Shown: positions 8,480-61,167, counted from the first letter of the stretch. The stretch is 64,000 nucleotides of DNA from Thermoplasmata archaeon (GCA_021792255.1 JAJYUZ010000003.1:137405-201404); one strand, 5' to 3'. Made by a program: numbers and translations. Notes: a model not told the origin generated them from the letters alone.

Positions 8480-8974
8480 ATGAAGGATGGAAAAATTACA
8501 TTAGATCAACTTAATAGCCTCGACAAGAAGATTCTACTTAGCATCTTCGAAACGAGAGAGACAAATCTGAGCGTCATTTCTAAAAAAGTTGGAGTTTCAA
8601 AATCCACAGTTCACAATAGATTGAAGAAAATGAAGAGTAGCAATTTCCTAAAGGGGGTCATACCTCTCATTAATCAAGCGAACCTCGATAGAGGTATCAC
8701 TGCAATTTCCTTGATCAGGTCAAAATATGGCCCAGAATACGGAGAAGCAATGGGAGCTAAAATTGCTAAGATCAGGGGAGTATGGGCCGTCTATTTCGTT
8801 CTAGGAAGCATAGATTTTGTCGCTATGATCCGTGCAAAGAACAAAACAGATCTTGCCGCAATAGTCAACGAACTATCGAAGACTCAGGGAATAGAGAGAA
8901 GCGAGACTATAATGGCACTAAACACTGCTAAGGAAGATTTCCCAGAGTCCCTTAAGCTCATTATAAAGGATTGA
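8480..8974 (+). CDS. Lrp/AsnC family transcriptional regulator
   Basis: 164 aa. N-terminal HTH (LSVISKKVGVSKSTVHNRLKKM) plus a C-terminal RAM/AsnC_trans_reg-like domain. Confidence 0.8.
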   Translation: MKDGKITLDQLNSLDKKILLSIFETRETNLSVISKKVGVSKSTVHNRLKKMKSSNFLKGVIPLINQANLDRGITAISLIRSKYGPEYGEAMGAKIAKIRGVWAVYFVLGSIDFVAMIRAKNKTDLAAIVNELSKTQGIERSETIMALNTAKEDFPESLKLIIKD

Positions 8975-47220: not shown

Positions 47221-48513
47221 GTGATCAAAATGAACTCTGATGGATATAATCCTTTGAAAGTGAATACAAACCTGGACTTCGGAAACCCATCGAGAGTAGT
47301 TTTTGGATTGGGTGCTGCGTACAACAGTTTGCCAGGACTCATAAAGGAGCTCAACCCGAAAAAAACCGTCCTGGTGAGCGATGAAATAGTTTCCAAGACA
47401 GGTGCTCTGGAAAAAATAGAATCGTCTCTCAAGGCGGCGGATTTGAAATTTGAGGAGCTGCTGATCCCGGTCGGCGAGCCGACGACAGAGATGACAAGAG
47501 ACCTTGTAGATAGAGCCCGTAAAGATAGACCAGAGATGTACGTAGGGATAGGTGGAGGAAGCGTACTTGATATGACAAAGTTGATGTCGATAATGGTGAC
47601 AAATCACGGAGAGCCAAAGAATTATTACGCACTACCTCCGGATCCCTGGTCCGATAAAGTTACCAACGTCGGAGTAAGGAAAATTCTAATTTCGACTACC
47701 GCAGGTACAGGCAGTGAGACCTCTAACACTCTTGTAGTGACAGAAGGTGGTTACAAAACGTGGATAACGAGTTCAAAGGTCACTGCAAACGTATCGCTCA
47801 TCGATCCATCGTTGACTTTTACCTTGCCCCCGGTCGCTACGAGAAACACTGGAATGGATGCACTAAGCCACTTGATCGAGGGAGTGCTGACAAACATGCC
47901 AAACCCCGTATCAGATGGAATGATCCAACAGGGAGTCCATCTAGTTTCCAAGTATCTCGTTAGGGCATACAACAACGGAAATGATGAAGAAGCGAGAGTG
48001 AACATGTCTTTTGCCGCGATGATGGGAGGCTGGGTGATTGCGTTCCCATGGGTCGGTGGCCCCGCAACTATTGGGCACTGCATGTCAGAGGCTCTGGGTC
48101 CGAAATTTGGTATCCCCCATGGATTCGCGTGCGCGATAATGTTGCCTCACGCTATGGACTTTAACCTTCCACTGGTCGCGCCTAGACTCAGATCAGTCGC
48201 AGAAGCGTTTGGGGTGGATACGTACGGACTTTCTGATATAGAAGCTGCCTCCGAAGCCATAAATTCCGTAGTATCACTAATGAAGAGTCTGGAGATGCCA
48301 GTTGCCCTGAAGAATGCTTCTAAATTCAAAAAGGACAGGCTTGCAGAGATGTTCGATTATGTGCTGAACGAAAGGCAGTACATTTACAACCTCCCTGTCT
48401 ACAATCCGAGGAGACTGACCAGAGAGAATTTGTCAGAATTGTTTGATGATGTCTGGGAGGGCAAGTTCACCACGGCTTCAAAGCTGGCAGAGGGTAGCGT
48501 GAAAACTTTTTAA
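47221..48513 (+). CDS. iron-containing (group III) alcohol dehydrogenase
   Basis: 430 aa. GIGGGSVLDMTK and metal-ligand His contexts (DALSHLIE, HCMSEALG..GIPHG). GTG 47221 directly follows the ALDH stop; an alternative ATG lies at 47230. Confidence 0.8.
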   Translation: MIKMNSDGYNPLKVNTNLDFGNPSRVVFGLGAAYNSLPGLIKELNPKKTVLVSDEIVSKTGALEKIESSLKAADLKFEELLIPVGEPTTEMTRDLVDRARKDRPEMYVGIGGGSVLDMTKLMSIMVTNHGEPKNYYALPPDPWSDKVTNVGVRKILISTTAGTGSETSNTLVVTEGGYKTWITSSKVTANVSLIDPSLTFTLPPVATRNTGMDALSHLIEGVLTNMPNPVSDGMIQQGVHLVSKYLVRAYNNGNDEEARVNMSFAAMMGGWVIAFPWVGGPATIGHCMSEALGPKFGIPHGFACAIMLPHAMDFNLPLVAPRLRSVAEAFGVDTYGLSDIEAASEAINSVVSLMKSLEMPVALKNASKFKKDRLAEMFDYVLNERQYIYNLPVYNPRRLTRENLSELFDDVWEGKFTTASKLAEGSVKTF

Positions 48514-48694: not shown

Positions 48695-49022
48695 AGCTTA
48701 TTTCTGCCTATTTTAGTCTAAATACCTCGAGCATTTGAAACGCACCTTAATATCGATACTGAAACTAATGCTAGATCAAGACAATCGGAGTACATAAAAA
48801 AAACCAATATTATTTTTTCAAGGAAATAGAGTCGTCTGTATCTTGTGCTTTTATTTGCGATCCAGTCAGTGGCTCTACAAATTGGGCTTGTGTTCCAAGA
48901 CGTCACTTATCTAATTGATCGATATTCTTAGTTTGCAGTATACTTGTAGATAGCAAGAATGAAAAGTAAGAATAAGGGGTTGGTTCAATTAACATTTAAT
49001 ATTAAAAAATCCCTATGCTATT

Positions 49023-50366
49023 GTGTATAGAATCGGCATAGAAGAACACGATAGCACCTTCTATGCGATAGTTCTGACAAATAATGACAAAGTTCTATGG
49101 AAGGGAAAAAACAAAGATCTGACTGAACTTCTGAACCTTCTCGACGAAAGTGAAGCGCTGAAAGGGCATGATATCGAGTATGCAGCATTTTCAACCGATA
49201 TTGTAAACAGCATTTCTCCAGTTATGAAAAGAACTTCCCCCATTGTTCTGATAAAAGTGGGAGGATCCAAAGATAACTTTTCTTATGTGTCTACAGAGAG
49301 GAATTCTCGCCCCTTCAAGGGATTGGAAATTCATAATTACTTTATTAAGGGTGCAATGAAACCATATGGAGAAGAAGAATCGCCTTTAGATTCCAAGGAA
49401 ATCAAAAAAATAGCCAAAATACTCAACGAAGACAAAAGTGTTAAGGGAGTTGGGATCATAGGTCAATTCTCAAACTTTTTACCTCAGCATGAAGAAAAGA
49501 TCGCAAGAGAGCTGAATAAGACTATTGAGAGAAAGATTTCAATTTGTTTGTCCTCATTGGTGTCCCACAGGAGCCTGGTGTACAGGGAAAGACTCCTCGT
49601 TATGAACCTAATTTTGGCAATTTCAGCCAGTCAGCATCTGATATTCATAGCAGAAAAGTTGAAAGAGTACCTAGGGCGTTCAAGACTCTATTTCTTAGGT
49701 TCTGATGGTTCACTAGTGCCAAACGAGACGGCACTTAATTACCCAGTGCTGCTGAATGGGTCGTCATACGTGTCGAAAATTGTTGGGCTTGGTGCAACCA
49801 CTGATTTGAAAGACCTCAACTTGATTACCAAGCTCGGAAAGAAGATTGTCCTCATGTCGTCATTCGATGGCGAGCCAGTATTAAAGAGGAAGGAGGATAC
49901 CTTTAAGAAAGGAATCAACGTTTTTTCTTCTGGAGTCATGAGACCGCTGAGTGGCAGATCAGAAGAGATTGAGCTCGTAATAAGAAATCTTAAAAAGAAA
50001 GATGAAACAACTACCGTGATAGACAAGAGTATCTTTCAAGAGTACCCCAAGCTTAATACCTGCGGTGCCAGATTGCAAAAGGTAGACGGATACCTAGGGG
50101 CTATGGGAGCAGTCTCAGCACCAATAAGGTTGACAATGGATTTCCTAGGCTCTATCCAGTTCAGTGGGAGGAAAGAAATATTGGAATCCTTCAAGAACAT
50201 TGTCAGGGAAAAAATCATAGAGGTGGGAGCAAAAACTGAGTCGGTAAGAGTCGTTCAAGTGGAAGAGATCCCTCTAAGTTATTTACCATGGGATAGCCTA
50301 AGAATCAGGATTTCAGTTGAAGGAAGACCGGGAGGCAGCCCCACATCTGGAGGCAAGCGGAAGTGA
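49023..50366 (+). CDS. hydantoinase-A/oxoprolinase-like (ASKHA) paralogue with degenerate nucleotide-binding motifs
   Basis: 447 aa, GTG start. It can be aligned along its length with the 55409 product (for example ..VRVVQVEEIPLSYLPWDSLRIRISVEG vs ..IEVKEVEEVSMPYLPGNSVKISVKVVG). However, the phosphate-1 motif is RIGIEEHDSTFYA instead of RIGIDVGSTNTDG, and the FDVGGATTNVG equivalent is missing. Confidence 0.6.
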   Translation: MYRIGIEEHDSTFYAIVLTNNDKVLWKGKNKDLTELLNLLDESEALKGHDIEYAAFSTDIVNSISPVMKRTSPIVLIKVGGSKDNFSYVSTERNSRPFKGLEIHNYFIKGAMKPYGEEESPLDSKEIKKIAKILNEDKSVKGVGIIGQFSNFLPQHEEKIARELNKTIERKISICLSSLVSHRSLVYRERLLVMNLILAISASQHLIFIAEKLKEYLGRSRLYFLGSDGSLVPNETALNYPVLLNGSSYVSKIVGLGATTDLKDLNLITKLGKKIVLMSSFDGEPVLKRKEDTFKKGINVFSSGVMRPLSGRSEEIELVIRNLKKKDETTTVIDKSIFQEYPKLNTCGARLQKVDGYLGAMGAVSAPIRLTMDFLGSIQFSGRKEILESFKNIVREKIIEVGAKTESVRVVQVEEIPLSYLPWDSLRIRISVEGRPGGSPTSGGKRK

Positions 50367-50865
50367 GTTTGATTTGATTGAAAGGGGAGAGACTAAACAA
50401 GAAGAGCACCTGGACGAGATAGACATAGGCATAATTAATATCTTGCTGGAAGACGGAACCAAGAATTTGAGTCAAATTGCCTCTGTACTTAAAGTGGGAA
50501 TAGCCACCGTTCACAGAAGGCTAAGGAAACTTAGGGATGAGGGTGTTATTGAGGGTTATACCCTTCTAGTGAACCCGAAGAAGTTGGGTCTTAATGTGAT
50601 TGCAATTACTTCCCTGAAAGTCGTGTCAGGCAGAGAACAAGAGATTCTCAAAGAGGTCGAAAAGATTAGAGATGTAACTGAGATATACAAGATCTCCGGC
50701 CAATTCGAGATAATCTTGAAGATAAAGGCAGGAGATCTTGGGGAACTGAACAAGATTCTAGACAGGATCAAGATAGTAAACGGAATTCAAGAGATAAACA
50801 CGAGCGTGGTTCTTGAAGTCCTTCGGGATCAACCCATACACCCTATCGGTGGTGAGACCAAATGA
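50317..50865 (+). CDS. Lrp/AsnC family transcriptional regulator
   Basis: 182 aa from ATG 50317, which overlaps the upstream gene by 50 nt; an alternative TTG lies at 50374. HTH LSQIASVLKVGIATVHRRLRKL plus a RAM domain. Confidence 0.75.
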   Translation: MKEDREAAPHLEASGSEFDLIERGETKQEEHLDEIDIGIINILLEDGTKNLSQIASVLKVGIATVHRRLRKLRDEGVIEGYTLLVNPKKLGLNVIAITSLKVVSGREQEILKEVEKIRDVTEIYKISGQFEIILKIKAGDLGELNKILDRIKIVNGIQEINTSVVLEVLRDQPIHPIGGETK

Positions 50866-51896
50866 AGATAGGAAGGAGAGAGCTCGAATCCCTCTCTTGT
50901 GGCTCGGAGATAATTGGAGGGGGAGGAGGTGGGAATACCTTTCCTGTAAGATCTGTCCTGAATTACTATCTGAGGGAAAATCATCCTCCAGTAACCATCG
51001 GAATTGATGACATTTCAGATTCAGCATTGGTAATGGGCGTAGCCTATCTTGGCTCTACTATGGTGATTGAAGAGAGGCTTCCGCAGGGACGGAATCTTAT
51101 TTCTTCAATTAAGACTCTCGAGAATTTCATAGGAGAGAAAACATCGGCAATAATTCCAATAGAGGGGGCAGGCGTGAATGCTTTAATTCCTCTCTTGGCC
51201 TCAGTAAATTCAAAAACACCAGTGATAGATGCTGACGGCATGGGACGCGCATTCCCTGAACTTTCTATGACTACATTCTCCATAAATGGAATATCTGCTT
51301 CCCCTCTCACAATTTCAGACGATCGAGGGAATGTGGTGGTTGTAGAGGAGCTTGAAGAAAAGCTGACAGAAGAAATGGTCAGAGGGATTGCTCTTATATA
51401 TGGAGGTGGCGCATGGCTAACTGCCTTTCCCATGACCGGAGCGGAAGCAAGAAAGTTCAGCATAAAAGGGACTATTTCAAGGAACATTCGGATAGGAGAC
51501 GTACTCTTGGAAAACACATCACCAAAGGAGAAAATCAAGAAGTTAGAGAGAGAATTCAACGTGAGATTGGTTGGTGAGGGCTACGTAAAAGAGATCTTTA
51601 GATACAGGGAAGGAAAGTTCTCGAAGGGTGACCTGTTCATAAAATGTTATGATGACAGATTTCTAAAGGTATCTTTTCAGAACGAATACCTGATGATCAC
51701 TGAACAAGATGAAGTAATAGCCAGTGTTCCCACCATAATCACACTAATTGACGCATATACCCTCAGACCCATAAGGACTGACGAGGTTACAACGGAAGAC
51801 GAAGTATTAGCTATATGTATTCCAGAGCCTGATGAACTCAGAACCAATAAAGCTCTCAACAAGGTCGGGCCGAGAGTCTTTGGATACAAAATATGA
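50862..51896 (+). CDS. DUF917-like protein, paralogue a
   Basis: 344 aa. Motifs: IIGGGGGGNT, IEGAGVNALIPL, IDADGMGRAFPELSM, FQNEYL, VGPRVFGY. ATGA overlap with the Lrp gene. Confidence 0.6.
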   Translation: MKIGRRELESLSCGSEIIGGGGGGNTFPVRSVLNYYLRENHPPVTIGIDDISDSALVMGVAYLGSTMVIEERLPQGRNLISSIKTLENFIGEKTSAIIPIEGAGVNALIPLLASVNSKTPVIDADGMGRAFPELSMTTFSINGISASPLTISDDRGNVVVVEELEEKLTEEMVRGIALIYGGGAWLTAFPMTGAEARKFSIKGTISRNIRIGDVLLENTSPKEKIKKLEREFNVRLVGEGYVKEIFRYREGKFSKGDLFIKCYDDRFLKVSFQNEYLMITEQDEVIASVPTIITLIDAYTLRPIRTDEVTTEDEVLAICIPEPDELRTNKALNKVGPRVFGYKI

Positions 51897-52040
51897 ATAG
51901 ATCCTGTTCAGTCTTTCTTTAACAACCTCTTGACACTTGCGTGCCAGAGCTCTTAAATAAGAAGCTAGGAGATAGTGGACTAATCTTGATGGCTTTCATT
52001 TCTTATGAATTAAAATACCAAAAAAAAATATATAAAATAC

Positions 52041-52442
52041 TTAGTCCAGAAAGTATATCTTCTTTCTCGCCACGTCAACAATCATAAACACTGCCAACAG
52101 AGATATGACTGTCAGAAGTACCACCTGTATCGCTACTGTCGCCGCGTTATCTGCGAAGTACTTTCCGAACAACAACGACAACACCGCGGTGGTAACGGAA
52201 AACGTAAGCCAAGAATGCTGTGCTCCAATCTTGCCAAATTTTTCAGAGCCCTCAGGACCATGCTCTTTCACAGTAGTCACCCGTACTAGTCCAAATACTG
52301 CAGACAGAACATTGACCAGTGCAAGTATCTCGAGCTCTATAGACGTAGCCTTGTTTGATGCGGTCAGTACTGCCACCAAAGTCACGAGGGACAGCACTGC
52401 AAAGAGTGCCAGCGTTAAATTGACCGTCTTCTTTAGATCCAT
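52041..52442 (-). CDS. small 4-TM membrane protein downstream of the NCS1 permease
   Basis: 133 aa with four hydrophobic helices. It begins 2 nt after the permease stop. Confidence 0.5.
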   Translation of the reverse strand: MDLKKTVNLTLALFAVLSLVTLVAVLTASNKATSIELEILALVNVLSAVFGLVRVTTVKEHGPEGSEKFGKIGAQHSWLTFSVTTAVLSLLFGKYFADNAATVAIQVVLLTVISLLAVFMIVDVARKKIYFLD

Positions 52443-52444
52443 GA

Positions 52445-53887
52445 CTATTCCTTCCCTCCTGAGGACTTGGGAGATTCTCCTATTGCGGCCAACAGTTTCC
52501 TATGTTCATACTCACCAAACTCATATCTAATATTCAGCGCCTTGCATACGTAAGCGATGATTATGTAGGCAACTATCCCCACAACGAATGCATTAACGGC
52601 GGCAATACCGATGTGTAAAAATAGTCCAGTTGCAGCGCCTATCGCGAAACTTAATATGCCGTTTACGTTTATTTCAGGATACTTACCTTCCGTGGTAAAT
52701 TTGTACCGGTCTTCAAATCTCCGTATCCCCTTGACGTATCTGTGAACTATATAGAAATCAGCAATGACAACACCAGCAGCTGCTGGCAGCAAATCTCCAA
52801 GCACGGTTATAAAATTCTCAAACGGAGCTATGGATGCACCGGAAGTGTATCCTATCCATGCAGCTATCCCAACTCCTATGACGCCGTTTATGATTGCAGC
52901 AGTTCCACGTTTCATCTTCCAGAGATTTACGAGCGAAAGAGAGCCCGAATAGAGGTTAACTGCGTTTATGCATAGTTGCCCGAGAATTATGATCAGGAGT
53001 ACCGCTATCCCCATCCCAACGCTTAACATGGCTTCCGTAACGAGGTATGTACCAGTTACAAGAACAAGTGCCACGCCACCCAGTATGAGGAATGGATAGA
53101 TGGCAAACATGTGAGTAGTCCAAGAGACCCAAGCGATTGTGCCTGATTTCGAGAACCTCGCTAGGTCACCTGCAATGAGTGCACCCGCTATGTACAATCC
53201 GACAGCAGCTGTAATTCCCTCCGCCATTGAATAGGGATGGAGCGGTCGGAGAGTCAATAGATTACCGCCCCCATGCACCAGAGAGAGGGCGATAATAAAA
53301 CCTACGCCAATCAACCATATGTGCTGCGGAAGCGCTATGTAAGTGAGGAACGATAGTGCCCTGTAACCTATGTACGTTGCAAGAACCATCAGTGCACCCC
53401 CCCAGAGAGAATCAAAGACTATGTTGTGAAGCAGACCAGTTGCAAACATCTCAGACATGACTATTCCAAACAACCATGTTTCTACAGCGTACCATCCTAT
53501 GCCTGTCGTGACCATTATGAGCACGACTCCAAATATTCCAGCCGGTATTCTACCAAAAGAATATCTCCAGTTCAGATAGGTGGAGCCTCCACTCTTGGCA
53601 GACATGAAACCGGTTAAGGAGCCAATTATGGCTAGTATGGTGCTTGCTGCAAACACAGCTATTACTGCACCTACAAAAGTCAGACCGTATCCAAGCGCTC
53701 CTCCTCCCCACACGACAGCAATCGCTGCGAACGAAGCATTCATCACCATGAACAGGTTGAAAAATCCTCTTCTGGATTTCCTTGGAACTTCTTTAAGTGA
53801 GAAGTCGTCAACTATGTCTCCAAGCTTGTTTTTAGAAGGATTTTTTGACATCTGCCCGGTCGGAGCGTTCTCTCCAGCCATGGTCAA
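52445..53887 (-). CDS. NCS1 family permease (cytosine/hydantoin/allantoin-type)
   Basis: 480 aa with about 12 TM. N-terminal ..EVPRKSRRGFFNLFMVMNAS.. and ..SGGSTYLNWRYSFGRIPAG...GIGWYAVETW.. patterns are typical of CodB/NCS1. Confidence 0.75.
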   Translation of the reverse strand: MTMAGENAPTGQMSKNPSKNKLGDIVDDFSLKEVPRKSRRGFFNLFMVMNASFAAIAVVWGGGALGYGLTFVGAVIAVFAASTILAIIGSLTGFMSAKSGGSTYLNWRYSFGRIPAGIFGVVLIMVTTGIGWYAVETWLFGIVMSEMFATGLLHNIVFDSLWGGALMVLATYIGYRALSFLTYIALPQHIWLIGVGFIIALSLVHGGGNLLTLRPLHPYSMAEGITAAVGLYIAGALIAGDLARFSKSGTIAWVSWTTHMFAIYPFLILGGVALVLVTGTYLVTEAMLSVGMGIAVLLIIILGQLCINAVNLYSGSLSLVNLWKMKRGTAAIINGVIGVGIAAWIGYTSGASIAPFENFITVLGDLLPAAAGVVIADFYIVHRYVKGIRRFEDRYKFTTEGKYPEINVNGILSFAIGAATGLFLHIGIAAVNAFVVGIVAYIIIAYVCKALNIRYEFGEYEHRKLLAAIGESPKSSGGKE

Positions 53888-54216
53888 CCCTCCTTTTTAG
53901 TCGTTAGAAAAAGTACTTCAGTAGGGTAAAAACTCACTGCTAACATGTTACTTCACATTTGTACGCATTCAAAGTATTTAATTTTTTCACAATTCTCACT
54001 TTTTACAAAAAAAAATATCATAGGCATAGGACTTGTATCCTGATAGTTCATTATGAATTATTCAATTATCTTAAGGACTATATGGACTGAGTCTGATGTT
54101 TTCTCTTTTGTTTGTTATCAATCGAATTACTTTCGTAAAAAAAAAATTCTGAGAAATGGTGATAAAATGGAAAATAAGAATCTTTAATATGAGCAAGCTA
54201 ATGAGAGTTCGATAGA

Positions 54217-54339
54217 ATGAGTTATCGGTTGGCACTTGACGATAAGGATTTCTTGAGGAGATTTGTAAAATTTGCGGTGTCGTCTCATCATCTCGAGATT
54301 GATAGAAACACCCTTCCATTGGAGAGGGAATTGACGTGA
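54217..54339 (+). CDS. possible 40-codon upstream ORF coupled (GTGA) to the DUF917-like gene b
   Basis: ATG 54217 to TGA 54337-54339 encodes MSYRLALDDKDFLRRFVKFAVSSHHLEIDRNTLPLERELT. Its stop overlaps GTG start 54336. I see no recognisable family and only a weak Shine-Dalgarno sequence. Confidence 0.2.
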   Translation: MSYRLALDDKDFLRRFVKFAVSSHHLEIDRNTLPLERELT

Positions 54340-55412
54340 GAGATTTAAACGTCCAGGATTTGGAGAATCTCGAGGTGGGGGCTGGCATCCTTGGAACCGG
54401 TGGAGGTGGGGACCCCTATATAGGAAAACTCCTCGCAAGGGAACAACTCCTAAGGGGGAAGAAAATCACACTCGTAGATCCAAAGGAGGTAGATTCTGAG
54501 TCCGAAATACTCCCAGTAGCGATGATGGGAGCTCCCGTGATTATGATCGAGAAAGTTCCAGGAGGCAAGGAAGTTGTAAAATCTCTAGAGTATTTCGAAA
54601 AGAATCTCAAAGAGAGTATTGATTTCATCACTCCTATTGAGATTGGGGGAGTAAATTCAACTGTACCTTTGGCAGTGGCGGGCATGACGGGTAAACCCGT
54701 AGTTGATGGCGATGGTGAGGGAAGGGCCTTCCCGGAGCTCCAGATGGTCACTTTCCACTTAGGAGATATCCAGGCGTCTCCAGTCGCAATGTTTGATGAA
54801 CGCGGAAACAACAACATTGTAATGGCCACGGATAATGTCTGGGCGGAGCGCATAGCTAGATCTGTCACGGTCAGATTTGGTGGGAGCGCGTACGTCGCCC
54901 TCTATCACATGAAAGGGATAGACTACAAAAAGTGGGCAGTTCTGAATACCATTACAAAATGCATAGACATAGGCGATGCTATTATGGACGCTAAGAGATC
55001 TGGTAGAAATGTTTTTGACGCCCTCCTTGACGAGACAGGAGGGGTTATGATCTTTTCAGGAAAAATCATCGAAGTGAAAAGGGAAGTGGAGAGAGGATTT
55101 GCGAGGGGTTCCACTGTTATAGAAGGCTCTGGGGAATTCAGGAACAAACATATGAGGATAGACTTCCAGAACGAGAACCTTATGGCCAGTATAGATGGCG
55201 AAATCATCACCAGCGTGCCCGATCTCATAACCATCCTAGACAGCGAAACTTCAGTTGCAATAACCACAGAGCACCTAAAATATGGGTTTCGTGTAAACGT
55301 GATGGTAATGAAATGCGACGAGAGATGGAGAACAGCTAAGGGACTGGAGACAGTTGGCCCCAGATACTTTGGGTATGACATAGAATACAGACCGATGGAG
55401 GAATTAATTTGA
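54336..55412 (+). CDS. DUF917-like protein, paralogue b
   Basis: 358 aa, GTG start. Motifs: ILGTGGGGDPYIG, IEIGGVNSTVPL, VDGDGEGRAFPELQM, FQNENL, VGPRYFGY. Confidence 0.6.
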   Translation: MRDLNVQDLENLEVGAGILGTGGGGDPYIGKLLAREQLLRGKKITLVDPKEVDSESEILPVAMMGAPVIMIEKVPGGKEVVKSLEYFEKNLKESIDFITPIEIGGVNSTVPLAVAGMTGKPVVDGDGEGRAFPELQMVTFHLGDIQASPVAMFDERGNNNIVMATDNVWAERIARSVTVRFGGSAYVALYHMKGIDYKKWAVLNTITKCIDIGDAIMDAKRSGRNVFDALLDETGGVMIFSGKIIEVKREVERGFARGSTVIEGSGEFRNKHMRIDFQNENLMASIDGEIITSVPDLITILDSETSVAITTEHLKYGFRVNVMVMKCDERWRTAKGLETVGPRYFGYDIEYRPMEELI

Positions 55413-56959
55413 AGGTAAGAATTGGGATTGATGTCGGTAGCACAAACACGGATGGGGTGGCCCTTGATGAAAACAACAACGTGCTCACCAAAGAAAAGTT
55501 CCAGACTACGGAAGACATTTCCACAGGTCTTTTCAACACCCTTAGAAAGGTCATTCAGAATCTCGGCAATTCGAAAGGATATATTGGAAGTGTAATGATT
55601 GGAACCACTCATGGATTAAATGCCATTACATCTCGGGTAGGGCTTACAGAGGTTCTAGCGATCAGGATAGGTCTGCCTGCCGGAGAGGGGATTCCTCCCC
55701 TGTCAGATTGGCCAGAGGAACTGAAGGAGGCCATAGGAAACCATATCCTTATGGTAAGGGGAGGACACGAATATACTGGAGAAGAGATAGTTAAATTCGA
55801 CGAAAATGGTCTGAGAAATTACCTTGCAAATTATAGGGGAAAGATTAAGTCTGTTGCCATCACTTCGATCTTTTCGTTCGTAAACCCAGAACACGAACTC
55901 AAAGCAGAATCCATAGTGAAAGAAGTATTAGGGGAGGAAGTCTTAGTAACACTCTCCAACAAGATCAGCAGTCTCGGTCTACTTGAAAGGGAGAACTCTA
56001 CGATTCTCAACGCAAGCATAAGACCACTAATGATGAGAATTATTGTGTCAATAGAAGAGATACTCAAGAATCTTGAACTGGGAGATGTAAAACTGTATTT
56101 TGCACAGAATGATGGAACCGTCGCCTCAGAAGACTTTGTGCGGAAATTTCCGATTTTCACCGTAGCAGGACCAATATCAAACAGCATCAGGGGTGCATTT
56201 GTACTCACAGGAATCGAAAATGCCGTTGTCTTTGATGTAGGGGGTGCCACTACCAACGTGGGGGCACTGACAAACGGTTATCCGAGAGAGTCCAGCAATC
56301 CTGTCATAATAGGGGGTGTCAGGACGAATTTCAGGATGCCTGACATCTTATCCATACCGCTTGCGGGTGGGACTATAGTCAGGGATAAGATAGGACCTGA
56401 TACGCTCGGTTTCAGGTTGACAAAAGAGGCAATATCATTTGGAGGAGATGTATTGACGGCTACAGACATTGCGCTGAACGCGCTGAAGATTGATCTTCCT
56501 GGAGCCGAAAGGTCTAGGGTTTTGAAAAAGTTTGACAATGATTTCATAACAAGTAAATATGTGACGATGAGAAATATGTGGGAAAATTGCCTTGATAAGA
56601 TAAAGACAAAAGCCGGGGATGTCAGGCTTGTGACCGTGGGTGGTGGCGCCTTCATGATACACAGCAAGCTTCGAGGTTCGTCAGACGTGATAAGACCGGA
56701 AAGTGCACAGTATGCTAATGCAATTGGGGCAGCAACAGCCCTTATTGGTGCAAGGATTGACAGAGCATATTCTTACGAGGCTGTGAAGAGGGAAAAGGCC
56801 ATAGAGGAATCAATTGAGCAGGCAAAATCTATCTCTGTAGAGGCGGGGGCAGTACCGTCGACCATAGAAGTGAAGGAAGTGGAAGAGGTGTCTATGCCTT
56901 ACCTCCCGGGTAATTCTGTCAAGATATCAGTAAAGGTAGTGGGAAAAATGGCACAATGA
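55409..56959 (+). CDS. hydantoinase-A/oxoprolinase family protein (ASKHA fold, motifs intact)
   Basis: 516 aa, TTG start in a TTGA overlap. Motifs: RIGIDVGSTNTDGV, LLERENSTILNASIRPLM, VFDVGGATTNVG, TVGGGAF. Confidence 0.7.
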   Translation: MKVRIGIDVGSTNTDGVALDENNNVLTKEKFQTTEDISTGLFNTLRKVIQNLGNSKGYIGSVMIGTTHGLNAITSRVGLTEVLAIRIGLPAGEGIPPLSDWPEELKEAIGNHILMVRGGHEYTGEEIVKFDENGLRNYLANYRGKIKSVAITSIFSFVNPEHELKAESIVKEVLGEEVLVTLSNKISSLGLLERENSTILNASIRPLMMRIIVSIEEILKNLELGDVKLYFAQNDGTVASEDFVRKFPIFTVAGPISNSIRGAFVLTGIENAVVFDVGGATTNVGALTNGYPRESSNPVIIGGVRTNFRMPDILSIPLAGGTIVRDKIGPDTLGFRLTKEAISFGGDVLTATDIALNALKIDLPGAERSRVLKKFDNDFITSKYVTMRNMWENCLDKIKTKAGDVRLVTVGGGAFMIHSKLRGSSDVIRPESAQYANAIGAATALIGARIDRAYSYEAVKREKAIEESIEQAKSISVEAGAVPSTIEVKEVEEVSMPYLPGNSVKISVKVVGKMAQ

Positions 56960-58026
56960 CGTGGAGACTGAGGCACGAAGACATCGACATATTGACTCTT
57001 GGAAGTTCTCTCCTGGGTTCAGGCGGAGGAGGAAACCCATACATTGGAGGCCTCTTGCTAAAGAAGTCGATGGAGAAATTAGGCATAGATGGGATAGAAG
57101 TTATCGCCCCCGATAGTATTAATGACGATGCTACAATAATCGCTTCTGCAGGGATGGGCTCTCCGACAATTGGATCTGAAAAATTGCCGAATGGTGAAGA
57201 GTATGCCCGGTCGTTGTCGAGACTTGAGAAAGATATGGAAATTGAATTTGAATACGTGACGCCTTCGGAGATTGGAGGGGCCAACTCGGTCGTACCCTTC
57301 ATAGCTGCTCTGTTTAGGGGCCTTCCAGTGCTTGATGGCGATGGTGAGGGAAGGGCCTTCCCGGAGCTCCAGATGACGACCTTCAATCTGTACGGTATCT
57401 CTTCCACTCCAATGTGTCTTGCGGACGAGAGAGGAAACGAACTGATCATCAACTCGGTTGATAATCTCTGGGCAGAAAGCATTGCAAGGTCTGTGACCGC
57501 ACGTTTTGGGGGAAGGGGATACGTGGCCAATTACCCAATGAGTGGAAAGGACTACAAGAAGTCGGCAGTAAAGAATTCAGTGAGTAGAGCAAGAGATCTC
57601 GGAGAGCTCCTCTCCAGGGGGATGAGGAACAATTCGGTTGAAGATGTGCTGACAAAAGAAGCAGGCGCCAGCGAGCTTTTCGATGGCAAATTGACAGATC
57701 TTGTAAGAGAAAACAATGGTGGTTTTTCCATAGGCTATGCGATTTTCCGGTCGACAGAAGGAGAGAAGACCTCAAGAATTAGATTTCAGAACGAGTATCT
57801 GTTCTTTGATGAGAAAATCGAAGGAGATATGATAGAGATTGTTACTACTCCCGAGATTATCTGCATACTCGATAGGGAAACATACATGCCAATAACAACG
57901 GATAGGCTACGATACGGCCAGAGGTGCAAGGTATTTAGTCTTCCAGTTGGCGAAAAGTGGAACCATCCACTTGCGGATGATCTGGTAGGTAGAAGAGTAT
58001 TTTCGGTTTTGAAACACTTTCAGTAG
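56956..58026 (+). CDS. DUF917-like protein, paralogue c
   Basis: 356 aa, ATGA overlap. Motifs: LLGSGGGGNPYIG, SEIGGANSVVPF, LDGDGEGRAFPELQM, FQNEYL. The C-terminal VGRRVFSV is diverged. Confidence 0.6.
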   Translation: MTWRLRHEDIDILTLGSSLLGSGGGGNPYIGGLLLKKSMEKLGIDGIEVIAPDSINDDATIIASAGMGSPTIGSEKLPNGEEYARSLSRLEKDMEIEFEYVTPSEIGGANSVVPFIAALFRGLPVLDGDGEGRAFPELQMTTFNLYGISSTPMCLADERGNELIINSVDNLWAESIARSVTARFGGRGYVANYPMSGKDYKKSAVKNSVSRARDLGELLSRGMRNNSVEDVLTKEAGASELFDGKLTDLVRENNGGFSIGYAIFRSTEGEKTSRIRFQNEYLFFDEKIEGDMIEIVTTPEIICILDRETYMPITTDRLRYGQRCKVFSLPVGEKWNHPLADDLVGRRVFSVLKHFQ

Positions 58027-58429: not shown

Positions 58430-58880
58430 ATGAAATTTAAAACAGACGATCGAGGACTAGATTTTGGGGTCTGACTGACAGTGGAGAGAGAATTACACTG
58501 AGTGAAAAATTGAAAGAAGGACCAGTCCTCTTGTACTTCTATCCGGAGGATGAAACTCCTGGATGTACTACAGAGACGTGCTCATTCAGAGACAACTGGG
58601 ATGAGATAAAGAAGGTGAGAGCGACTGTGCTGGGAGTGAGCTTTGACTCAGTTGATTCCCATAAGAATTTTAAATCGAACCGGCCCCTACAGTTCATCCT
58701 CGTTTCTGATGAGAGTAAGGCGATCAGAGAAGCATATGGAGCTACTGGTCTACTGATACCCCACGTATAGCTTTTGTGATAGACAAAGGCGGAACGATAA
58801 AGGAAGTCTATAGTTCTCAGCTCAATGCGACCAACCACGCTGATGTAGCACTGAAAACATTGAAATCTGTTAGGCAGTAA
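58430..58880 (+). pseudogene. bcp: Bcp-type peroxiredoxin gene interrupted by two 1-nt frameshifts (or by sequencing errors)
   Basis: Three frames join into a full-length Bcp of about 150 aa: MKFKTDDRGLDF / LTDSGERITLSEKLKEGPVLLYFYPEDETPGCTTETCSFRD...LLIP / RIAFVIDKGGTIKEVY...KSVRQ*. The shifts fall in the T4G4 run (58462-58469) and the C4 run (58759-58762). Confidence 0.7.
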
Positions 58881-59976: not shown

Positions 59977-61167
59977 TCAAAGCTTGCTCTTTACAAAATC
60001 TATGAAGACCTCTGCATCTCCGAAAACATTGGACAGTTTGGCATACTCATTGGGCATGTGTTCAGTTTCATCAAGAGTGCCCCATACTATTGTGTCTAGC
60101 CCTTTGTTCCTAAAGAATGCTCCGCAGGTCCCTCCACCTATTCCAACTCTGTTGACTTCAATCCCCCTGATCTTCTTGATACTGTTTATGAATTTCTGAA
60201 CAAATTCCTTTCCTTCTGGAGTATTGGAAGATGGGTTTGCCCTGTTGATAAATTCAAGCTGAACTTCCACTCCAAATTCCTCCTTAAATTCGTTAGTCAC
60301 TTTCTCCACTTCTTTGAAAACTTCATCAATTGAGTATCTCGGAAGAATCCTCATATCGAAATAGAAGCTCTCTTTACCGGGGATGATGTTTATCGATGTC
60401 GTCCCGGGTTCCACTTTTGTAGGTTCAAACGTGCTCATAGGAACAGTGAATTCTGAATCGGTCGCGTTGAATTTTGAATGGAGATCTTTGTCCAACCTCA
60501 ACTCCAGCTCCCTTGCTAATCTATGGGCGTTCTTTCCAGCATCCGGGGTCGATGCGTGACATTGCTGCCCCACGACGCTTATCTTGAGCCATATCAATCC
60601 CTTTTCCGCTATCTCCACCGAGTCCCCTTCCGGAGTGCCAAAATCAGGAACTACGAATTTGTCGTTTTTACTGAATTTCTTGTTACGAAGAACGTAGTCT
60701 ATACCGAAGGTGCTTCCAGCCTCCTCGTCTGAAACAAATATTACGCCTATGTTGTTCTGCAATTCCTCTGGACACTCCAAGAAGTACTTTAGTGCGATCA
60801 GGGAAGAAATTCCTCCTTGTCCGTTATCGCACGTCCCTCTTCCATAAATTTTATCTCCATCGATTGTGGCCTGGAAAGGGGGATATTTCCATAGACTTAG
60901 GTCGCCCTCACTTACTGTGTCCATGTGCGCGACAAACCAAACAGTCTTCTCCTTTCCCTTGTCCAGTAGAAACAGGAGGTTCGGTCTCTTGATTCCATCG
61001 GATACCGCTACATACTCTTCGAATTTCAAGCCCTTGTTCCAGCTCAGTATCTCCCTCTTAAGGAATTCGGCTCTCTTTTCTTCCCCTCTTCCTCCACCGG
61101 CAGGGTTAACTGCATTTATTTCAATCATCTTTGAGTACAAGTCTAAGAAGTAGTCCCTATCACTCAT
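59977..61167 (-). CDS. M20 family metallohydrolase (ArgE/DapE/LysK-like deacylase)
   Basis: 396 aa. Motifs: AHMDTV, GRGTCDNGQG, SDEEAGS, plus a C-terminal HMPNEY. Confidence 0.8.
   Translation of the reverse strand: MSDRDYFLDLYSKMIEINAVNPAGGGRGEEKRAEFLKREILSWNKGLKFEEYVAVSDGIKRPNLLFLLDKGKEKTVWFVAHMDTVSEGDLSLWKYPPFQATIDGDKIYGRGTCDNGQGGISSLIALKYFLECPEELQNNIGVIFVSDEEAGSTFGIDYVLRNKKFSKNDKFVVPDFGTPEGDSVEIAEKGLIWLKISVVGQQCHASTPDAGKNAHRLARELELRLDKDLHSKFNATDSEFTVPMSTFEPTKVEPGTTSINIIPGKESFYFDMRILPRYSIDEVFKEVEKVTNEFKEEFGVEVQLEFINRANPSSNTPEGKEFVQKFINSIKKIRGIEVNRVGIGGGTCGAFFRNKGLDTIVWGTLDETEHMPNEYAKLSNVFGDAEVFIDFVKSKL

What the first reader, a model, noticed from the sequence alone, without database searches (positions are those of the whole stretch)
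49023..58026. Uncharacterised transporter-linked cluster: 3 DUF917-like + 2 hydantoinase-A-like + NCS1 permease + Lrp, with no hydantoinase-B partner
Seen in the sequence: eight consecutive genes are ordered as follows. Degenerate HyuA-like (49023-50366), Lrp/AsnC (50317-50865) and DUF917-like a (50862-51896) run forward. A 4-TM protein (52041-52442) and an NCS1 permease (52445-53887) run in reverse. DUF917-like b (54336-55412), intact HyuA-like (55409-56959) and DUF917-like c (56956-58026) run forward. The three DUF917-like proteins share GGGG(N/D)(P/T) near the N-terminus, D(A/G)DGxGRAFPEL and FQNE(Y/N)L; a and b also share VGPRxFGY, diverged to VGRRVFSV in c. Established knowledge: NCS1 carriers import hydantoins, allantoin, nucleobases and related heterocycles. 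The characterised ATP-dependent hydantoinase, 5-oxoprolinase, caprolactamase and acetone-carboxylase-type enzymes pair an ASKHA 'A' subunit with a 'B' subunit. No B-type gene is present here. Inference: the DUF917-like proteins may substitute for the B component, and the cluster may import and then open or modify a cyclic amide/ureide-type compound under Lrp control. From memory only and unverified: one bacterial DUF917 member has been linked to desulfurisation of a thiohydantoin intermediate in ergothioneine catabolism. I know of no description of an archaeal triple-paralogue arrangement like this.
Basis: partly seen in the sequence, partly recalled or inferred. Interest (0 to 1): 0.8.

Follow-up and report, generated by a model that had tools for sequence, protein, structure and literature searches.

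The report
HyuA-like/DUF917 transporter-linked enzyme cluster
An archaeal gene cluster pairs a short ATP-binding hydantoinase-A-like protein with DUF917 proteins instead of the usual B subunit; the same uncharacterised partnership occurs from archaea and bacteria to animals, where the two are fused, so it probably marks a widespread enzyme of unknown substrate.

Summary
All eight genes are real and sit at the stated coordinates. HMM searches give the predicted families: three DUF917 (PF06032+PF20906), one intact and one degenerate HyuA-like protein, a CodB-like NCS1 permease and an Lrp/AsnC regulator. No HyuB is present in the 64-kb window.

The core is not special to this genome. In 76 of 80 species sampled, the b-type DUF917 lies next to a short (~516 aa) HyuA-like gene, usually overlapping by 1-8 nt. 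NCS1 is linked in 47 of 80 loci, and 43 of 80 carry two or more DUF917 genes. HyuB is rare nearby and then has its own long HyuA. Single-chain HyuA-like::DUF917 fusions are widespread in eukaryotes, and an AlphaFold model of one has pTM 0.87.

So DUF917, not HyuB, is the partner. It shows no HyuB fold, and the chemistry and substrate remain unknown. The three DUF917 proteins are not ergothioneine-type desulfurase equivalogs.

The new observation is the second module: a HyuA-like protein that has lost its nucleotide-binding motifs, co-operonic with the regulator and DUF917a. Firmicutes show a parallel arrangement with a sigma-54 activator. I found no experimental characterisation.

Verdict: a real, widespread, uncharacterised variant of the ATP-dependent hydantoinase type. 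Interest is moderate to high.

The parts
48995..49002 (+). TATA-like box TTTAATAT, 21 nt upstream of the GTG start of the degenerate HyuA-like gene; a possible promoter for a leaderless transcript
   Evidence: A similar ATTTAATAT element lies at the same place upstream of the orthologues in L010-L012. The evidence is weak: the octamer occurs 5 times in the window against 2.7 expected.
49023..50366 (+). Degenerate short HyuA-like protein (447 aa), an ASKHA pseudo-ATPase
   Evidence: Hydant_A_N scores 28.5 bits. hhalign against the intact short HyuA family gives E=8e-32 over the full length. It has lost phosphate-1 (DVGSTNTD becomes EEHDSTFY), phosphate-2 (DVGGAT becomes TKLGKK), the ~100-aa RTNFRMPD...TATD insert and the VGGG motif. 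It keeps the middle domain and the C-terminal E-E-I-P-L-x-Y-L-P barrel. Orthologues at 43-46% identity share its synteny. Only 4 proteins reach E<1e-30 among 1.8 billion representatives.
50317..50865 (+). Lrp/AsnC-family regulator (HTH plus RAM ligand domain), lying between the degenerate HyuA-like gene and DUF917a
   Evidence: PF13412/PF13404 plus PF01037. All NCBIfam equivalog hits fall below cutoff. The same position is conserved in L010-L012. Its stop overlaps the DUF917a start by 4 nt. The TTG start at 50317 is uncertain, because the orthologues are 163-175 aa.
50862..51896 (+). DUF917 paralogue a (344 aa), divergent
   Evidence: PF06032 159.7 bits and PF20906 136.7 bits. It is 31% identical to b, 68% to its orthologues in L010-L012 and at most 36% to any other DUF917 sampled. 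It retains the family-invariant residues.
52041..52442 (-). Small membrane protein (133 aa, 3-4 TM segments) immediately downstream of the permease
   Evidence: No Pfam or NCBIfam hit. Hydropathy analysis. A small gene sits in the same position in L011, L012, L093, L094, Caldivirga L005 and archaeal MAG L056. Sequence similarity to the Caldivirga protein is weak (E=0.015).
52445..53887 (-). NCS1 permease of the CodB-like subgroup
   Evidence: PF02133 66.6 bits. The best NCBIfam hit is cytosine permease at 190 bits, below the cutoff of 326. The only PDB match is CodB 7qoa at E=5e-26; no Mhp1 match was found.
53888..54335 (.). AT-rich divergent intergenic region between the permease operon and the DUF917b operon; presumed promoters
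   Evidence: Sequence. A GGAGAGGG Shine-Dalgarno-like element lies 7 nt before the GTG at 54336. No operator motif shared with the other promoters was found.
54336..55412 (+). DUF917 paralogue b (358 aa), the widely conserved HyuA-coupled type
   Evidence: PF20906 238 bits and PF06032 183.8 bits. Orthologues are 42-59% identical across archaea and bacteria. The AF2 model has pLDDT 89 and matches 2o3i at TM 0.80.
55409..56959 (+). Intact short HyuA-like ASKHA protein (516 aa), a putative ATPase or kinase subunit
   Evidence: Hydant_A_N plus a partial Hydantoinase_A match. It retains D8/D15, QNDGT, D276-G-G-x-T and VGGG, all invariant in the family. Asp8 and Asp276 align with the phosphate-1 and phosphate-2 Asp residues of CapA (D11, D295), whose mutation significantly reduced caprolactamase product formation (PMC8453981). 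PDB similarity covers only N-methylhydantoinase residues 2-384 and CapA 5-385.
56956..58026 (+). DUF917 paralogue c (356 aa), a diverged copy of the b type
   Evidence: PF06032 176.4 bits and PF20906 150.8 bits. It is 42% identical to b and 45% to the Caldivirga b-type protein. Its orthologue in L093 is 67% identical and shares the altered C-terminus. The b-HyuA-c order is conserved in L093 and L094.
59977..61167 (-). M20 metallo-hydrolase of the ArgE/DapE type; a possible, unproven pathway member
   Evidence: NF010589 scores 479 bits against a cutoff of 333. A 77%-identical orthologue lies directly upstream of the degenerate HyuA-like gene in L010 and L011. It is not of the carbamoylase/allantoate-amidohydrolase type.

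Best explanation
The region holds two linked modules of a widespread but uncharacterised system.

Module 1 comprises the permease operon (52041-53887, minus strand) and the divergent operon DUF917b, short HyuA-like, DUF917c (54336-58026). I read it as an uptake-plus-conversion unit. A CodB-like NCS1 carrier, with a small membrane partner, imports a small N-heterocycle such as a cyclic ureide, hydantoin, pyrimidine-like compound or lactam. The short HyuA-like ASKHA protein binds ATP and activates either the substrate or its partner. DUF917 proteins, rather than HyuB, carry out the second half-reaction in a physical complex with it. DUF917c is probably a specialised second DUF917 subunit.

Module 2 (49023-51896) encodes a HyuA-like protein that has lost nucleotide binding, an Lrp/AsnC regulator and the divergent DUF917a. 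It most likely forms an ATP-independent DUF917 complex. That complex would either make or sense the effector for the regulator, or catalyse an adjacent step that needs no ATP.

Shown: the gene content, the partnership between HyuA-like and DUF917, the absence of HyuB, the loss of motifs, and conservation under selection.

Inferred: ATP use, the kind of chemistry, the substrate class, the regulatory wiring and the role of module 2.
For: Partnership between DUF917 and the short HyuA-like protein:
- In 80 loci from different species, the b-type DUF917 is adjacent on the same strand to a short HyuA-like gene in 76. The other 4 are truncated or frameshifted. Junction gaps are mostly -8, -4 or -1 nt, and both gene orders occur.
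- Natural fusions exist as HyuA-like::DUF917 and as DUF917::HyuA-like. The first type is widespread in protists, animals, algae and fungi.
- The AF2 model of a fusion has pTM 0.87 despite a 65-residue disordered linker, which implies a defined interface between the two modules.

HyuB is not the partner:
- HyuB is absent from the window.
- It occurs in only 4 of 145 nearest neighbours, each time beside its own 670-690-aa HyuA.
- The short HyuA resembles CapA and N-methylhydantoinase only up to about residue 385. This excludes the CapA segments reported to contact CapB (helix N at 418-438 and the omega loop at 553-560; PMC8453981).

Nucleotide binding: the ASKHA motifs are intact and invariant in the short HyuA family.

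Transport link: NCS1 is present in 47 of 80 loci, and oligopeptide-type ABC systems occur in others.

Substrate hints:
- Asp/Glu/hydantoin-racemase-like genes occur in 13 of 80 loci and in L012, L007 and L009.
- AroM and DUF1177 accompany the module in Caldivirga.
- PucR-type regulators appear in 13-15 of 145 neighbours.
- CDO-like nitroreductases appear among the neighbours.
- A carbamoylase-family amidase lies 3.3 kb from the module in relative L093.

Co-regulation: the triad changes together in a C. difficile hcpR mutant (PMC12915319).

Module 2:
- Synteny is conserved in L010-L012.
- The motif losses are shown.
- The b-HyuA-c unit occurs without module 2 next to it in L093 and L094.
- Firmicutes carry an operon of sigma-54 activator, DUF917 and degenerate HyuA-like. 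In 5 of 6 of these loci a TGGCAC-N5-TTGC promoter precedes the NCS1-DUF917-HyuA operon.
Against: - No biochemical data were found for any HyuA-coupled DUF917.
- DUF917 shows no detectable fold similarity to HyuB, and no His or Cys is among its invariant residues. Equivalence to the Zn-dependent B subunit is therefore an analogy only.
- The characterised DUF917 reactions, as named by NCBIfam, displace a leaving group at C2 of an imidazolone. Transferred literally to a phospho-lactim, that chemistry would be a futile ATPase cycle, so a different outcome must be assumed.
- The permease subgroup (CodB-like) does not point specifically to hydantoins.
- The window's M20 enzyme is ArgE/DapE-like, not a carbamoylase.
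- pTM is only an indirect measure of an interface, and the model is of a eukaryotic fusion, not the archaeal proteins.
- The 80 loci were selected as the best matches to paralogue b. They describe that orthologous group, not all DUF917 proteins.
Confidence: 0.6

Rival explanations
1. The DUF917 proteins are stand-alone (S-methyl)thiohydantoin desulfurases, as in bacterial ergothioneine catabolism, and the cluster degrades ergothioneine-type thio-imidazoles.
For: Pfam now names the family S-Me-THD-like. The only NCBIfam hits for a, b and c are thiohydantoin desulfurase NF058529 and S-methyl thiohydantoin desulfurase NF058532. A relative (L093) carries an amidase resembling ErtE (363 bits) 3.3 kb away.
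Against: Scores are 62-85 bits against equivalog cutoffs of 440-450. No ammonia-lyase or urocanase-like gene was seen in the 21 kb annotated around the cluster. The proteins belong to the clade that is almost always coupled to a HyuA-like ATPase, which this pathway is not known to need. The ErtE-like hit is itself below its cutoff of 520.
Confidence: 0.07
2. The short HyuA-like protein does not act on the substrate. It is an ATP-dependent activase or chaperone for DUF917, in the manner of GlmL/MutL reactivases or the BcrAD/HgdC-type activators, and DUF917 is the sole catalyst.
For: There are weak hits to MutL/GlmL, BcrAD_BadFG and acyl-CoA dehydratase activase models. Foldseek finds 2-hydroxyacyl-CoA dehydratase activators among distant ASKHA matches. 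Characterised DUF917 enzymes appear to work without a partner, judging from their NCBIfam names. Module 2 retains DUF917a while its ASKHA partner has lost ATP binding.
Against: Similarity to the substrate-phosphorylating HyuA subunits is far stronger: N-methylhydantoinase at E=1e-43 against 1e-6 or worse for activases. The GlmL model scores 26 bits against a cutoff of 475. No Fe-S or B12 signature is present. Stoichiometric fusion in eukaryotes fits a catalytic partner better than a repair factor.
Confidence: 0.15
3. A canonical HyuB is encoded elsewhere in the genome and pairs with the 516-aa HyuA-like protein, and the DUF917 genes catalyse separate steps.
For: Only 64 kb of the genome could be examined. 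Canonical HyuA and HyuB lie beside the DUF917 module in 5 of 80 loci, for example archaeal MAG L056.
Against: In those loci HyuB is always next to its own long HyuA, which matches the full Hydantoinase_A profile. The short form lacks detectable similarity beyond CapA residue 385, the region that contacts CapB (PMC8453981). The pairing with DUF917 is near-universal, and the two are fused in eukaryotes.
Confidence: 0.05
4. Module 2 (degenerate HyuA-like plus DUF917a) is decaying duplicate DNA with no function.
For: Catalytic motifs are lost and a ~100-aa segment is deleted. The family is very small.
Against: The reading frames are intact. Orthologues at 43-46% identity (degenerate HyuA-like) and 68% (DUF917a) sit in conserved synteny in at least three other organisms, and 118 columns are invariant among the four sequences. 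DUF917a keeps all family-invariant residues. A comparable degenerate pair persists in several Firmicutes.
Confidence: 0.05

Closest known systems
[quoted passage not shown]
   Same: The 516-aa protein shares the Hydant_A_N/ASKHA core and its catalytic Asp residues with the A subunits. It forms a two-component arrangement with a tightly coupled or fused partner. It is linked to a transporter for small heterocycles.
   Different: The partner is DUF917, which has a different fold and no conserved His-rich metal site, not HyuB (PF02538). The A-type protein is about 180 aa shorter and has no detectable counterpart of the CapA segments that contact CapB. No activity has been demonstrated.
DUF917 / S-Me-THD-like desulfurases of ergothioneine catabolism (NCBIfam NF058529, NF058532) and the structural-genomics protein CV_3147 (PDB 2o3i)
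   Same: Both share the two-domain fold (TM 0.80 to 2o3i) and the motifs GGGG, DxDGxGRAxP and FQNE.
   Different: Scores are far below the equivalog cutoffs. The proteins here belong to a clade obligatorily paired with a HyuA-like ATPase. The window carries three paralogues. No ergothioneine-pathway context was seen.
Classical ATP-independent hydantoin-utilisation clusters (NCS1 permease Mhp1/HyuP, hydantoin racemase, amidohydrolase-superfamily hydantoinase, carbamoylase)
   Same: The overall logic matches: an NCS1 importer and, in related loci, an Asp/Glu/hydantoin-racemase-like gene and a carbamoylase-family amidase.
   Different: No TIM-barrel hydantoinase is present. The permease is CodB-like rather than Mhp1-like. 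The window itself has no racemase and no carbamoylase-type M20.
Eukaryotic single-chain 'hydantoinase' proteins with Hydant_A_N, Hydantoinase_A and DUF917 domains (for example in Branchiostoma, Trichoplax, molluscs, corals, green algae and basidiomycetes)
   Same: They carry the same two modules and the same invariant residues in both halves. They appear to be the fused equivalent of the b-plus-HyuA pair.
   Different: They are fused in one chain and come from eukaryotes, so no operon context with a transporter or regulator is available for them. They are also uncharacterised.

Membership tests
DUF917 / S-Me-THD-like (PF06032 + PF20906) | Both Pfam domains score above the gathering threshold, in N-to-C order | tested here: met
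   a scores 159.7/136.7 bits, b 183.8/238.0 and c 176.4/150.8, against cutoffs of 27.
DUF917 / S-Me-THD-like (PF06032 + PF20906) | Fold as in 2o3i, and the conserved motifs GGGG, DxDGxGRAFPE and FQNE | tested here: met
   The AF2 model of b (pLDDT 89) matches 2o3i at E=6e-22 and TM 0.80. The invariant columns include all three paralogues.
Thiohydantoin desulfurase / S-methyl thiohydantoin desulfurase equivalogs (NF058529, NF058532) | Score at or above the curated equivalog cutoff (440 / 450 bits) | tested here: not met
   scores are 62-85 bits for a, b and c.
Thiohydantoin desulfurase / S-methyl thiohydantoin desulfurase equivalogs (NF058529, NF058532) | Neighbourhood containing other ergothioneine-catabolic genes (ergothionase, thiourocanate hydratase, ErtD, ErtE) | tested here: not met
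   None of these appears among the genes annotated within about 10 kb on either side or among the large window ORFs. Not every small ORF of the window was scanned.
ATP-dependent hydantoinase/oxoprolinase, A subunit (HyuA; PF05378 + PF01968) | Hydant_A_N and Hydantoinase_A domains, with the ASKHA phosphate-binding Asp residues | tested here: met
   For 55409-56959, Pfam gives 127.8 and 67.3 bits, and D8 and D276 are invariant. Hydantoinase_A is matched only over positions 1-170 of 291. For 49023-50366, only a marginal Hydant_A_N hit is found and the Asp motifs are lost.
ATP-dependent hydantoinase/oxoprolinase holoenzyme (HyuA + HyuB) | A HyuB (PF02538) partner, adjacent or fused | tested here: not met
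   No PF02538 hit in the window. Only 4 of 145 neighbours in related loci are HyuB, and each accompanies a separate long HyuA. The rest of the genome is not available.
ATP-dependent hydantoinase/oxoprolinase holoenzyme (HyuA + HyuB) | A full-length A subunit (~650-730 aa) including the alpha+beta domain and helix that contact B | tested here: not met
   The protein is 516 aa. Profile similarity to CapA and N-methylhydantoinase ends at about residue 385. The contact elements are described in PMC8453981.
ATP-dependent hydantoinase/oxoprolinase holoenzyme (HyuA + HyuB) | ATP-dependent hydrolysis of a cyclic amide | not testable with these tools
   This requires enzyme assays.
NCS1 transporters (PF02133) | The Pfam domain spans the protein | tested here: met
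   66.6 bits over residues 41-441. CodB 7qoa matches at E=5e-26.
Cytosine permease CodB equivalog (NF008241) | Score at or above 326 bits | tested here: not met
   190.2 bits.
Lrp/AsnC (FFRP) regulators | An N-terminal winged HTH plus a C-terminal RAM/AsnC_trans_reg domain | tested here: met
   PF13412/PF13404 plus PF01037. No equivalog cutoff is reached.
GlmL/MutL-type ASKHA reactivases | Match to the GlmL family models above cutoff | tested here: not met
   NF040745 scores 26 bits against 475, and TIGR01319 scores 15 against 204.

The most novel reading that the evidence does not exclude
The degenerate HyuA-like protein and DUF917a form a pseudo-enzyme pair that has lost ATP turnover and now acts as the ligand sensor, or inducer-generating unit, for the regulator encoded between them. 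Evolution appears to have reached the same solution separately in Firmicutes. There, a sigma-54 activator, a DUF917 and a degenerate HyuA-like protein form an operon that drives a sigma-54 promoter in front of the NCS1-DUF917-HyuA operon. Together with module 1, this would define a new, cross-domain class of ATP-dependent heterocycle-converting enzyme (HyuA-like/DUF917) with its own dedicated sensing derivative.
Probability: 0.2. Interest if true: 0.8.

Novelty: new variant of a known kind. Interest (0 to 1): 0.62.

Why it matters
The HyuA/HyuB enzymes are the textbook way in which cells spend ATP to open stable cyclic amides such as 5-oxoproline, N-methylhydantoin and caprolactam. This analysis points to a second, very widespread solution: a shortened A-type ATPase works with an unrelated partner, DUF917.

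The pair is found in archaea, many bacteria (including Enterococcus faecalis, Clostridioides difficile and Lacticaseibacillus rhamnosus) and, as a single fused chain, in animals, algae, fungi and protists. I found no assigned substrate or reaction for it.

Identifying the substrate would annotate thousands of genes. It might also reveal a general salvage or repair route for a common heterocycle. The degenerate pair wedged around a regulator offers a possible example of an enzyme complex turned into a sensor. The thermophile and archaeal versions could interest biocatalysis of lactams and hydantoins.

Tried and rejected
- Literature searches for DUF917, thiohydantoin desulfurase, ergothioneine with thiohydantoin, COG3535/IPR010318/PF20906, and hydantoinase with cytosine permease found no functional study of the HyuA-coupled system. 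They returned only incidental mentions.
- A direct BLASTP of the archaeal degenerate HyuA-like protein against the Thermoanaerobacter 402-aa protein was not significant. Profile comparison showed both are derived from the short HyuA family, but each is closer to the intact family than to the other (8e-32 and 1e-28 against 8e-14). I therefore do not claim a single ancient degenerate clade.
- A search for an operator motif shared by the cluster's promoters and those of related loci found only A/T runs and a TATA-like octamer of weak significance.
- I considered the window's M20 hydrolase as an L-carbamoylase. It is ArgE/DapE-type, and it is unrelated (21% identity) to the carbamoylase-family M20 near the module in L093.
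- The organism could not be named. An archaeal origin is inferred from the thermosome and the Lrp type. A Thermoplasma-like affiliation is suggested only by a Ta1207-family gene in relative L093.

Full report

Pfam assigns the following:
- 50862-51896 (a), 54336-55412 (b) and 56956-58026 (c) match PF06032+PF20906. This family was formerly DUF917 and is now named S-Me-THD-like.
- 55409-56959 matches Hydant_A_N plus the first 170 of 291 positions of Hydantoinase_A.
- 49023-50366 gives only a marginal Hydant_A_N hit.
- 50317-50865 matches an AsnC-type HTH plus the ligand domain.
- 52445-53887 matches NCS1.

All quoted motifs are in the translations. The 133-aa protein has three strong hydrophobic segments and one weaker one. 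The junctions b/HyuA, HyuA/c and AsnC/a each overlap by 4 nt.

No HyuB was found. There is no PF02538 hit among the large ORFs. An HMM built from four Pfam-verified HyuB proteins has no hit in any window ORF of 70 aa or more at E<=10.

**What the proteins are not.** NCBIfam's thiohydantoin desulfurase and S-methyl-thiohydantoin desulfurase models are the only named hits for a, b and c. They score 62-85 bits against cutoffs of 440-450, so these proteins are relatives, not equivalogs.

The permease resembles CodB (190 bits, cutoff 326; PDB 7qoa at E=5e-26). It gives no Mhp1 match.

The intact HyuA-like protein is closest to N-methylhydantoinase, CapA, and the acetophenone and acetone carboxylase A-type subunits. 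Sequence similarity stops at about residue 385 of those 650-730-aa proteins. According to the caprolactamase structure paper, CapA contacts CapB through helix 418-438 and an omega loop at 553-560. In the same study, mutating D11 or D295 in the ATP-binding site significantly reduced product formation (PMC8453981). The window protein keeps the matching Asp8 and Asp276, as well as QNDGT and VGGG. All of these are invariant in an alignment of 12 short HyuA-like proteins.

**The partnership.** Orthologues of paralogue b are 42-59% identical across Thermoproteota, Thermococcus, Haloferax, Bacillota, Chloroflexota, Actinomycetota and other groups.

I took 80 loci from different species and labelled their ORFs with HMMs built here:
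- DUF917 is adjacent on the same strand to a 510-530-aa HyuA-like gene in 76 of 80 loci. The remaining 4 are truncated or frameshifted.
- The junction is most often -8, -4 or -1 nt.
- Both gene orders occur (53 and 31 instances).
- NCS1 is present in 47 of 80 loci.
- A racemase-like gene is present in 13 of 80.
- Two or more DUF917 genes are present in 43 of 80, and three or more in 15 of 80. Chloroflexota carry up to six. Kribbella and Haloferax also have multi-copy loci.

Individual look-ups show the same triad in Caldivirga (with AroM and DUF1177), in Thermococcus (with an AsnC regulator and a racemase) and in Thermoanaerobacter. Published tables list the triad in C. difficile, where the three genes change together in an hcpR mutant, and in L. 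rhamnosus (PMC12915319, PMC7513527).

A Pfam census of the 145 nearest unassigned neighbours found:
- PucR-type regulators: 13-15
- sigma-54 activators: 9
- ABC or oligopeptide transport components: 6-8
- TetR regulators: 6
- CDO-like nitroreductase plus DUF6092: 5 each
- Hydantoinase_B: 4

Each of the four HyuB proteins sits beside its own long HyuA, which matches the full Hydantoinase_A profile.

**Rosetta-stone evidence.** An exhaustive profile search, started from the degenerate protein, recovered the short HyuA family and many proteins of 880-1020 aa. Pfam shows these to be HyuA-like::DUF917 fusions, and one is a DUF917::HyuA-like fusion.

Searching with one fusion showed that the fused form is widespread in eukaryotes. 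It occurs in Anaeramoeba, Balamuthia, amphioxus, Trichoplax, echinoderms, cnidarians, molluscs, green algae and basidiomycetes. All are annotated as uncharacterised or generically as 'hydantoinase'.

An AlphaFold2 model of a fusion, built from a 36-sequence alignment, has pLDDT 86.8 and pTM 0.87, although residues 526-591 form a disordered linker. A pTM that high for a protein of 525+385 residues implies a confidently placed interface between the two modules.

Foldseek aligns the N-terminal half to the A-type subunits over 610-650 columns. It aligns the C-terminal half only to 2o3i. Nothing aligns to the HyuB half of N-methylhydantoinase 9h03. The stand-alone model of paralogue b likewise matches only 2o3i.

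**Two modules in the window.** Relatives of this organism separate the cluster into two parts.
- L093 and L094 carry small-TM, NCS1, then the divergent b-HyuA-c operon, with no degenerate gene beside it. Identities to the window proteins in L093 are b 73%, HyuA 76% and c 67%. The altered C-terminus of c is conserved.
- L010, L011 and L012 carry [M20]-degenerate HyuA-like-AsnC-DUF917a. L012 adds a racemase-like gene. In L011 and L012 this trio is followed by small-TM and NCS1.

Paralogue c is a diverged b-type copy: 42% identical to b and 45% to the Caldivirga b-type protein. Paralogue a is at most 36% identical to anything outside its own lineage, where its orthologues are 68% identical. All three keep the family-invariant residues.

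**The degenerate HyuA-like protein.** It is homologous to the intact family over its full length (hhalign E=8e-32; BLASTP segments). It has lost:
- phosphate-1 (DVGSTNTD becomes EEHDSTFY)
- phosphate-2
- a ~100-aa segment (RTNFRMPD...GYR...TATD)
- the VGGG motif

It keeps the middle domain and the C-terminal E-E-I-P-L-x-Y-L-P element.

It is not a pseudogene. Four orthologues at 43-46% identity share 118 invariant columns and conserved synteny. The family is tiny: 4 proteins reach E<1e-30 among 1.8 billion representatives.

**A parallel in Firmicutes.** Thermoanaerobacter and five loci from the scan (L020, L021, L040, L086, L092) carry an operon of sigma-54 activator, DUF917 and a 374-449-aa degenerate HyuA-like protein. 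It runs divergently from NCS1-DUF917-HyuA(-racemase). Their degenerate proteins lack the same motifs and the same segment.

In 5 of these 6 loci, a TGGCAC-N5-TTGC sigma-54 promoter lies upstream of the NCS1 operon. The background frequency is 0.015 per kb.

Profile comparisons place each degenerate group closer to the intact family than to the other group (8e-32 and 1e-28 against 8e-14). They are therefore probably independent or fast-diverging derivatives.

Two unrelated regulator types are each co-operonic with a DUF917 plus a nucleotide-blind HyuA-like protein. This is the most unexpected feature, and it prompts the sensor or inducer-maker hypothesis.

**Mechanism proposed.** Some steps are shown and others are inferred.
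- Shown: the gene content, the partnership, the absence of HyuB, the retention or loss of ASKHA motifs, and selection on all members.
- Inferred from the HyuA/HyuB precedent (PMC8453981): the short HyuA-like protein uses ATP to activate a cyclic amide or ureide, probably as a phospho-lactim, and a bound DUF917 then processes it.
- Inferred from the names of the characterised DUF917 enzymes (NCBIfam) and from my own memory of the ergothioneine pathway, which I could not verify in the paper library: DUF917 catalyses water attack on an activated C2 of an imidazolone-type ring.
- The analogy is imperfect. Simple displacement of phosphate would be futile, so ring opening or another nucleophile has to be assumed.

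Substrate class is suggested only by context. The hints are the CodB-like NCS1 or peptide-type ABC importers, racemase-like, AroM and DUF1177 genes, PucR regulators, CDO-like nitroreductases, occasional neighbouring canonical HyuAB, and a carbamoylase-family amidase near the module in L093. The window's own M20 enzyme is ArgE/DapE-like.

**Comparison with known systems, and novelty.** The system works most like the ATP-dependent HyuA/HyuB enzymes, but it fails two of that family's defining tests: it has no HyuB and its A subunit is truncated. It belongs to the DUF917 family but not to the characterised desulfurase equivalogs.

One preprint states that DUF917 proteins are uncharacterised and enriched beside hydantoin racemases and AroM in some cyclodipeptide-oxidase clusters (10.1101/2023.09.25.559410). 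I found no paper that describes the HyuA-like/DUF917 partnership, its eukaryotic fusions or the degenerate regulatory-operon pairs.

The finding is therefore a real instance of a widespread, unstudied variant of a known enzyme type. The window is not unique for the core module. Its lineage-specific module 2 is the distinctive part.

Noticed in passing
window 52041-52442 (-); also L005 12381-12749, L011 4928-5329, L012 4055-4456, L056 7569-7949, L093 3269-3658, L094 828-1220: A small (122-135 aa) multi-pass membrane protein with no family assignment always follows the NCS1 permease gene in the archaeal versions of the cluster. It may be an accessory subunit of the carrier. Bacterial loci in the sample lack it.
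   Followed up: partly
L007 2340-6246, L020 4096-8262, L021 4066-8205, L040 4294-8391, L086 4477-8371, L092 461-4378: Firmicute loci carry an operon of sigma-54 activator, DUF917 and a nucleotide-blind HyuA-like protein. In 5 of 6 of these loci a -24/-12 promoter precedes the divergent NCS1-DUF917-HyuA operon. The activators' N-terminal ~210-255 residues match no Pfam family.
   Followed up: partly
proteins P0131, P0278, P0283, P0294, P0338, P0362 and others: Single-chain HyuA-like::DUF917 proteins of about 950-1100 aa are encoded by many animals (amphioxus, echinoderms, molluscs, cnidarians, Trichoplax), green algae, basidiomycetes and protists. All are annotated as uncharacterised. Several Haliotis and Gigantopelta species have multiple copies.
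   Followed up: partly
window 58510-58770 (+): A short ORF (79-86 aa) matches AhpC-TSA/Redoxin. It looks like a truncated peroxiredoxin fragment just downstream of DUF917c.
   Followed up: no
window 45727-48513 (+): An aldehyde dehydrogenase (aminobutyraldehyde/betaine-aldehyde dehydrogenase-like, 590 bits, just below the subfamily cutoff of 615) is directly abutted by an Fe-type alcohol dehydrogenase, immediately upstream of the cluster. Any relation to the cluster is unknown.
   Followed up: no
window 59977-61167 (-); L010 2992-4182; L011 146-1336: An ArgE/DapE-type M20 hydrolase lies 2 kb from the cluster in the window. Its 77%-identical orthologue directly precedes the degenerate HyuA-like gene in relatives. 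In L010 an S9 peptidase (Dpp5-like) lies further upstream.
   Followed up: partly
window 16231-20606 (+) and 22034-23659 (-): DNA gyrase B and A genes and a thermosome subunit occur in the same window. This is consistent with a gyrase-bearing archaeon. A relative's contig (L093) carries a Ta1207-family gene, which hints at a Thermoplasma-like lineage.
   Followed up: no
window 13725-15071 (-) and 8480-8974 (+): A second, distant NCS1-like permease (72 bits to the session HMM) and a second AsnC-like regulator lie elsewhere in the window. They are not linked to DUF917 genes.
   Followed up: no
window 35750-38440 (+): An 896-aa protein combines an N-terminal GNAT acetyltransferase with CoA-binding, succinyl-CoA-ligase-like and ATP-grasp domains. 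This is the architecture of Pat-type protein acetyltransferases and ADP-forming acyl-CoA synthetases.
   Followed up: no
L056 1541-11174 (archaeal MAG JAFMDM010000046.1): One archaeal locus places a canonical HyuB and long HyuA pair divergently beside AsnC-NCS1-small TM-DUF917-short HyuA. This is the closest overall match to the window's architecture, and the two hydantoinase-type systems may act on related substrates.
   Followed up: partly
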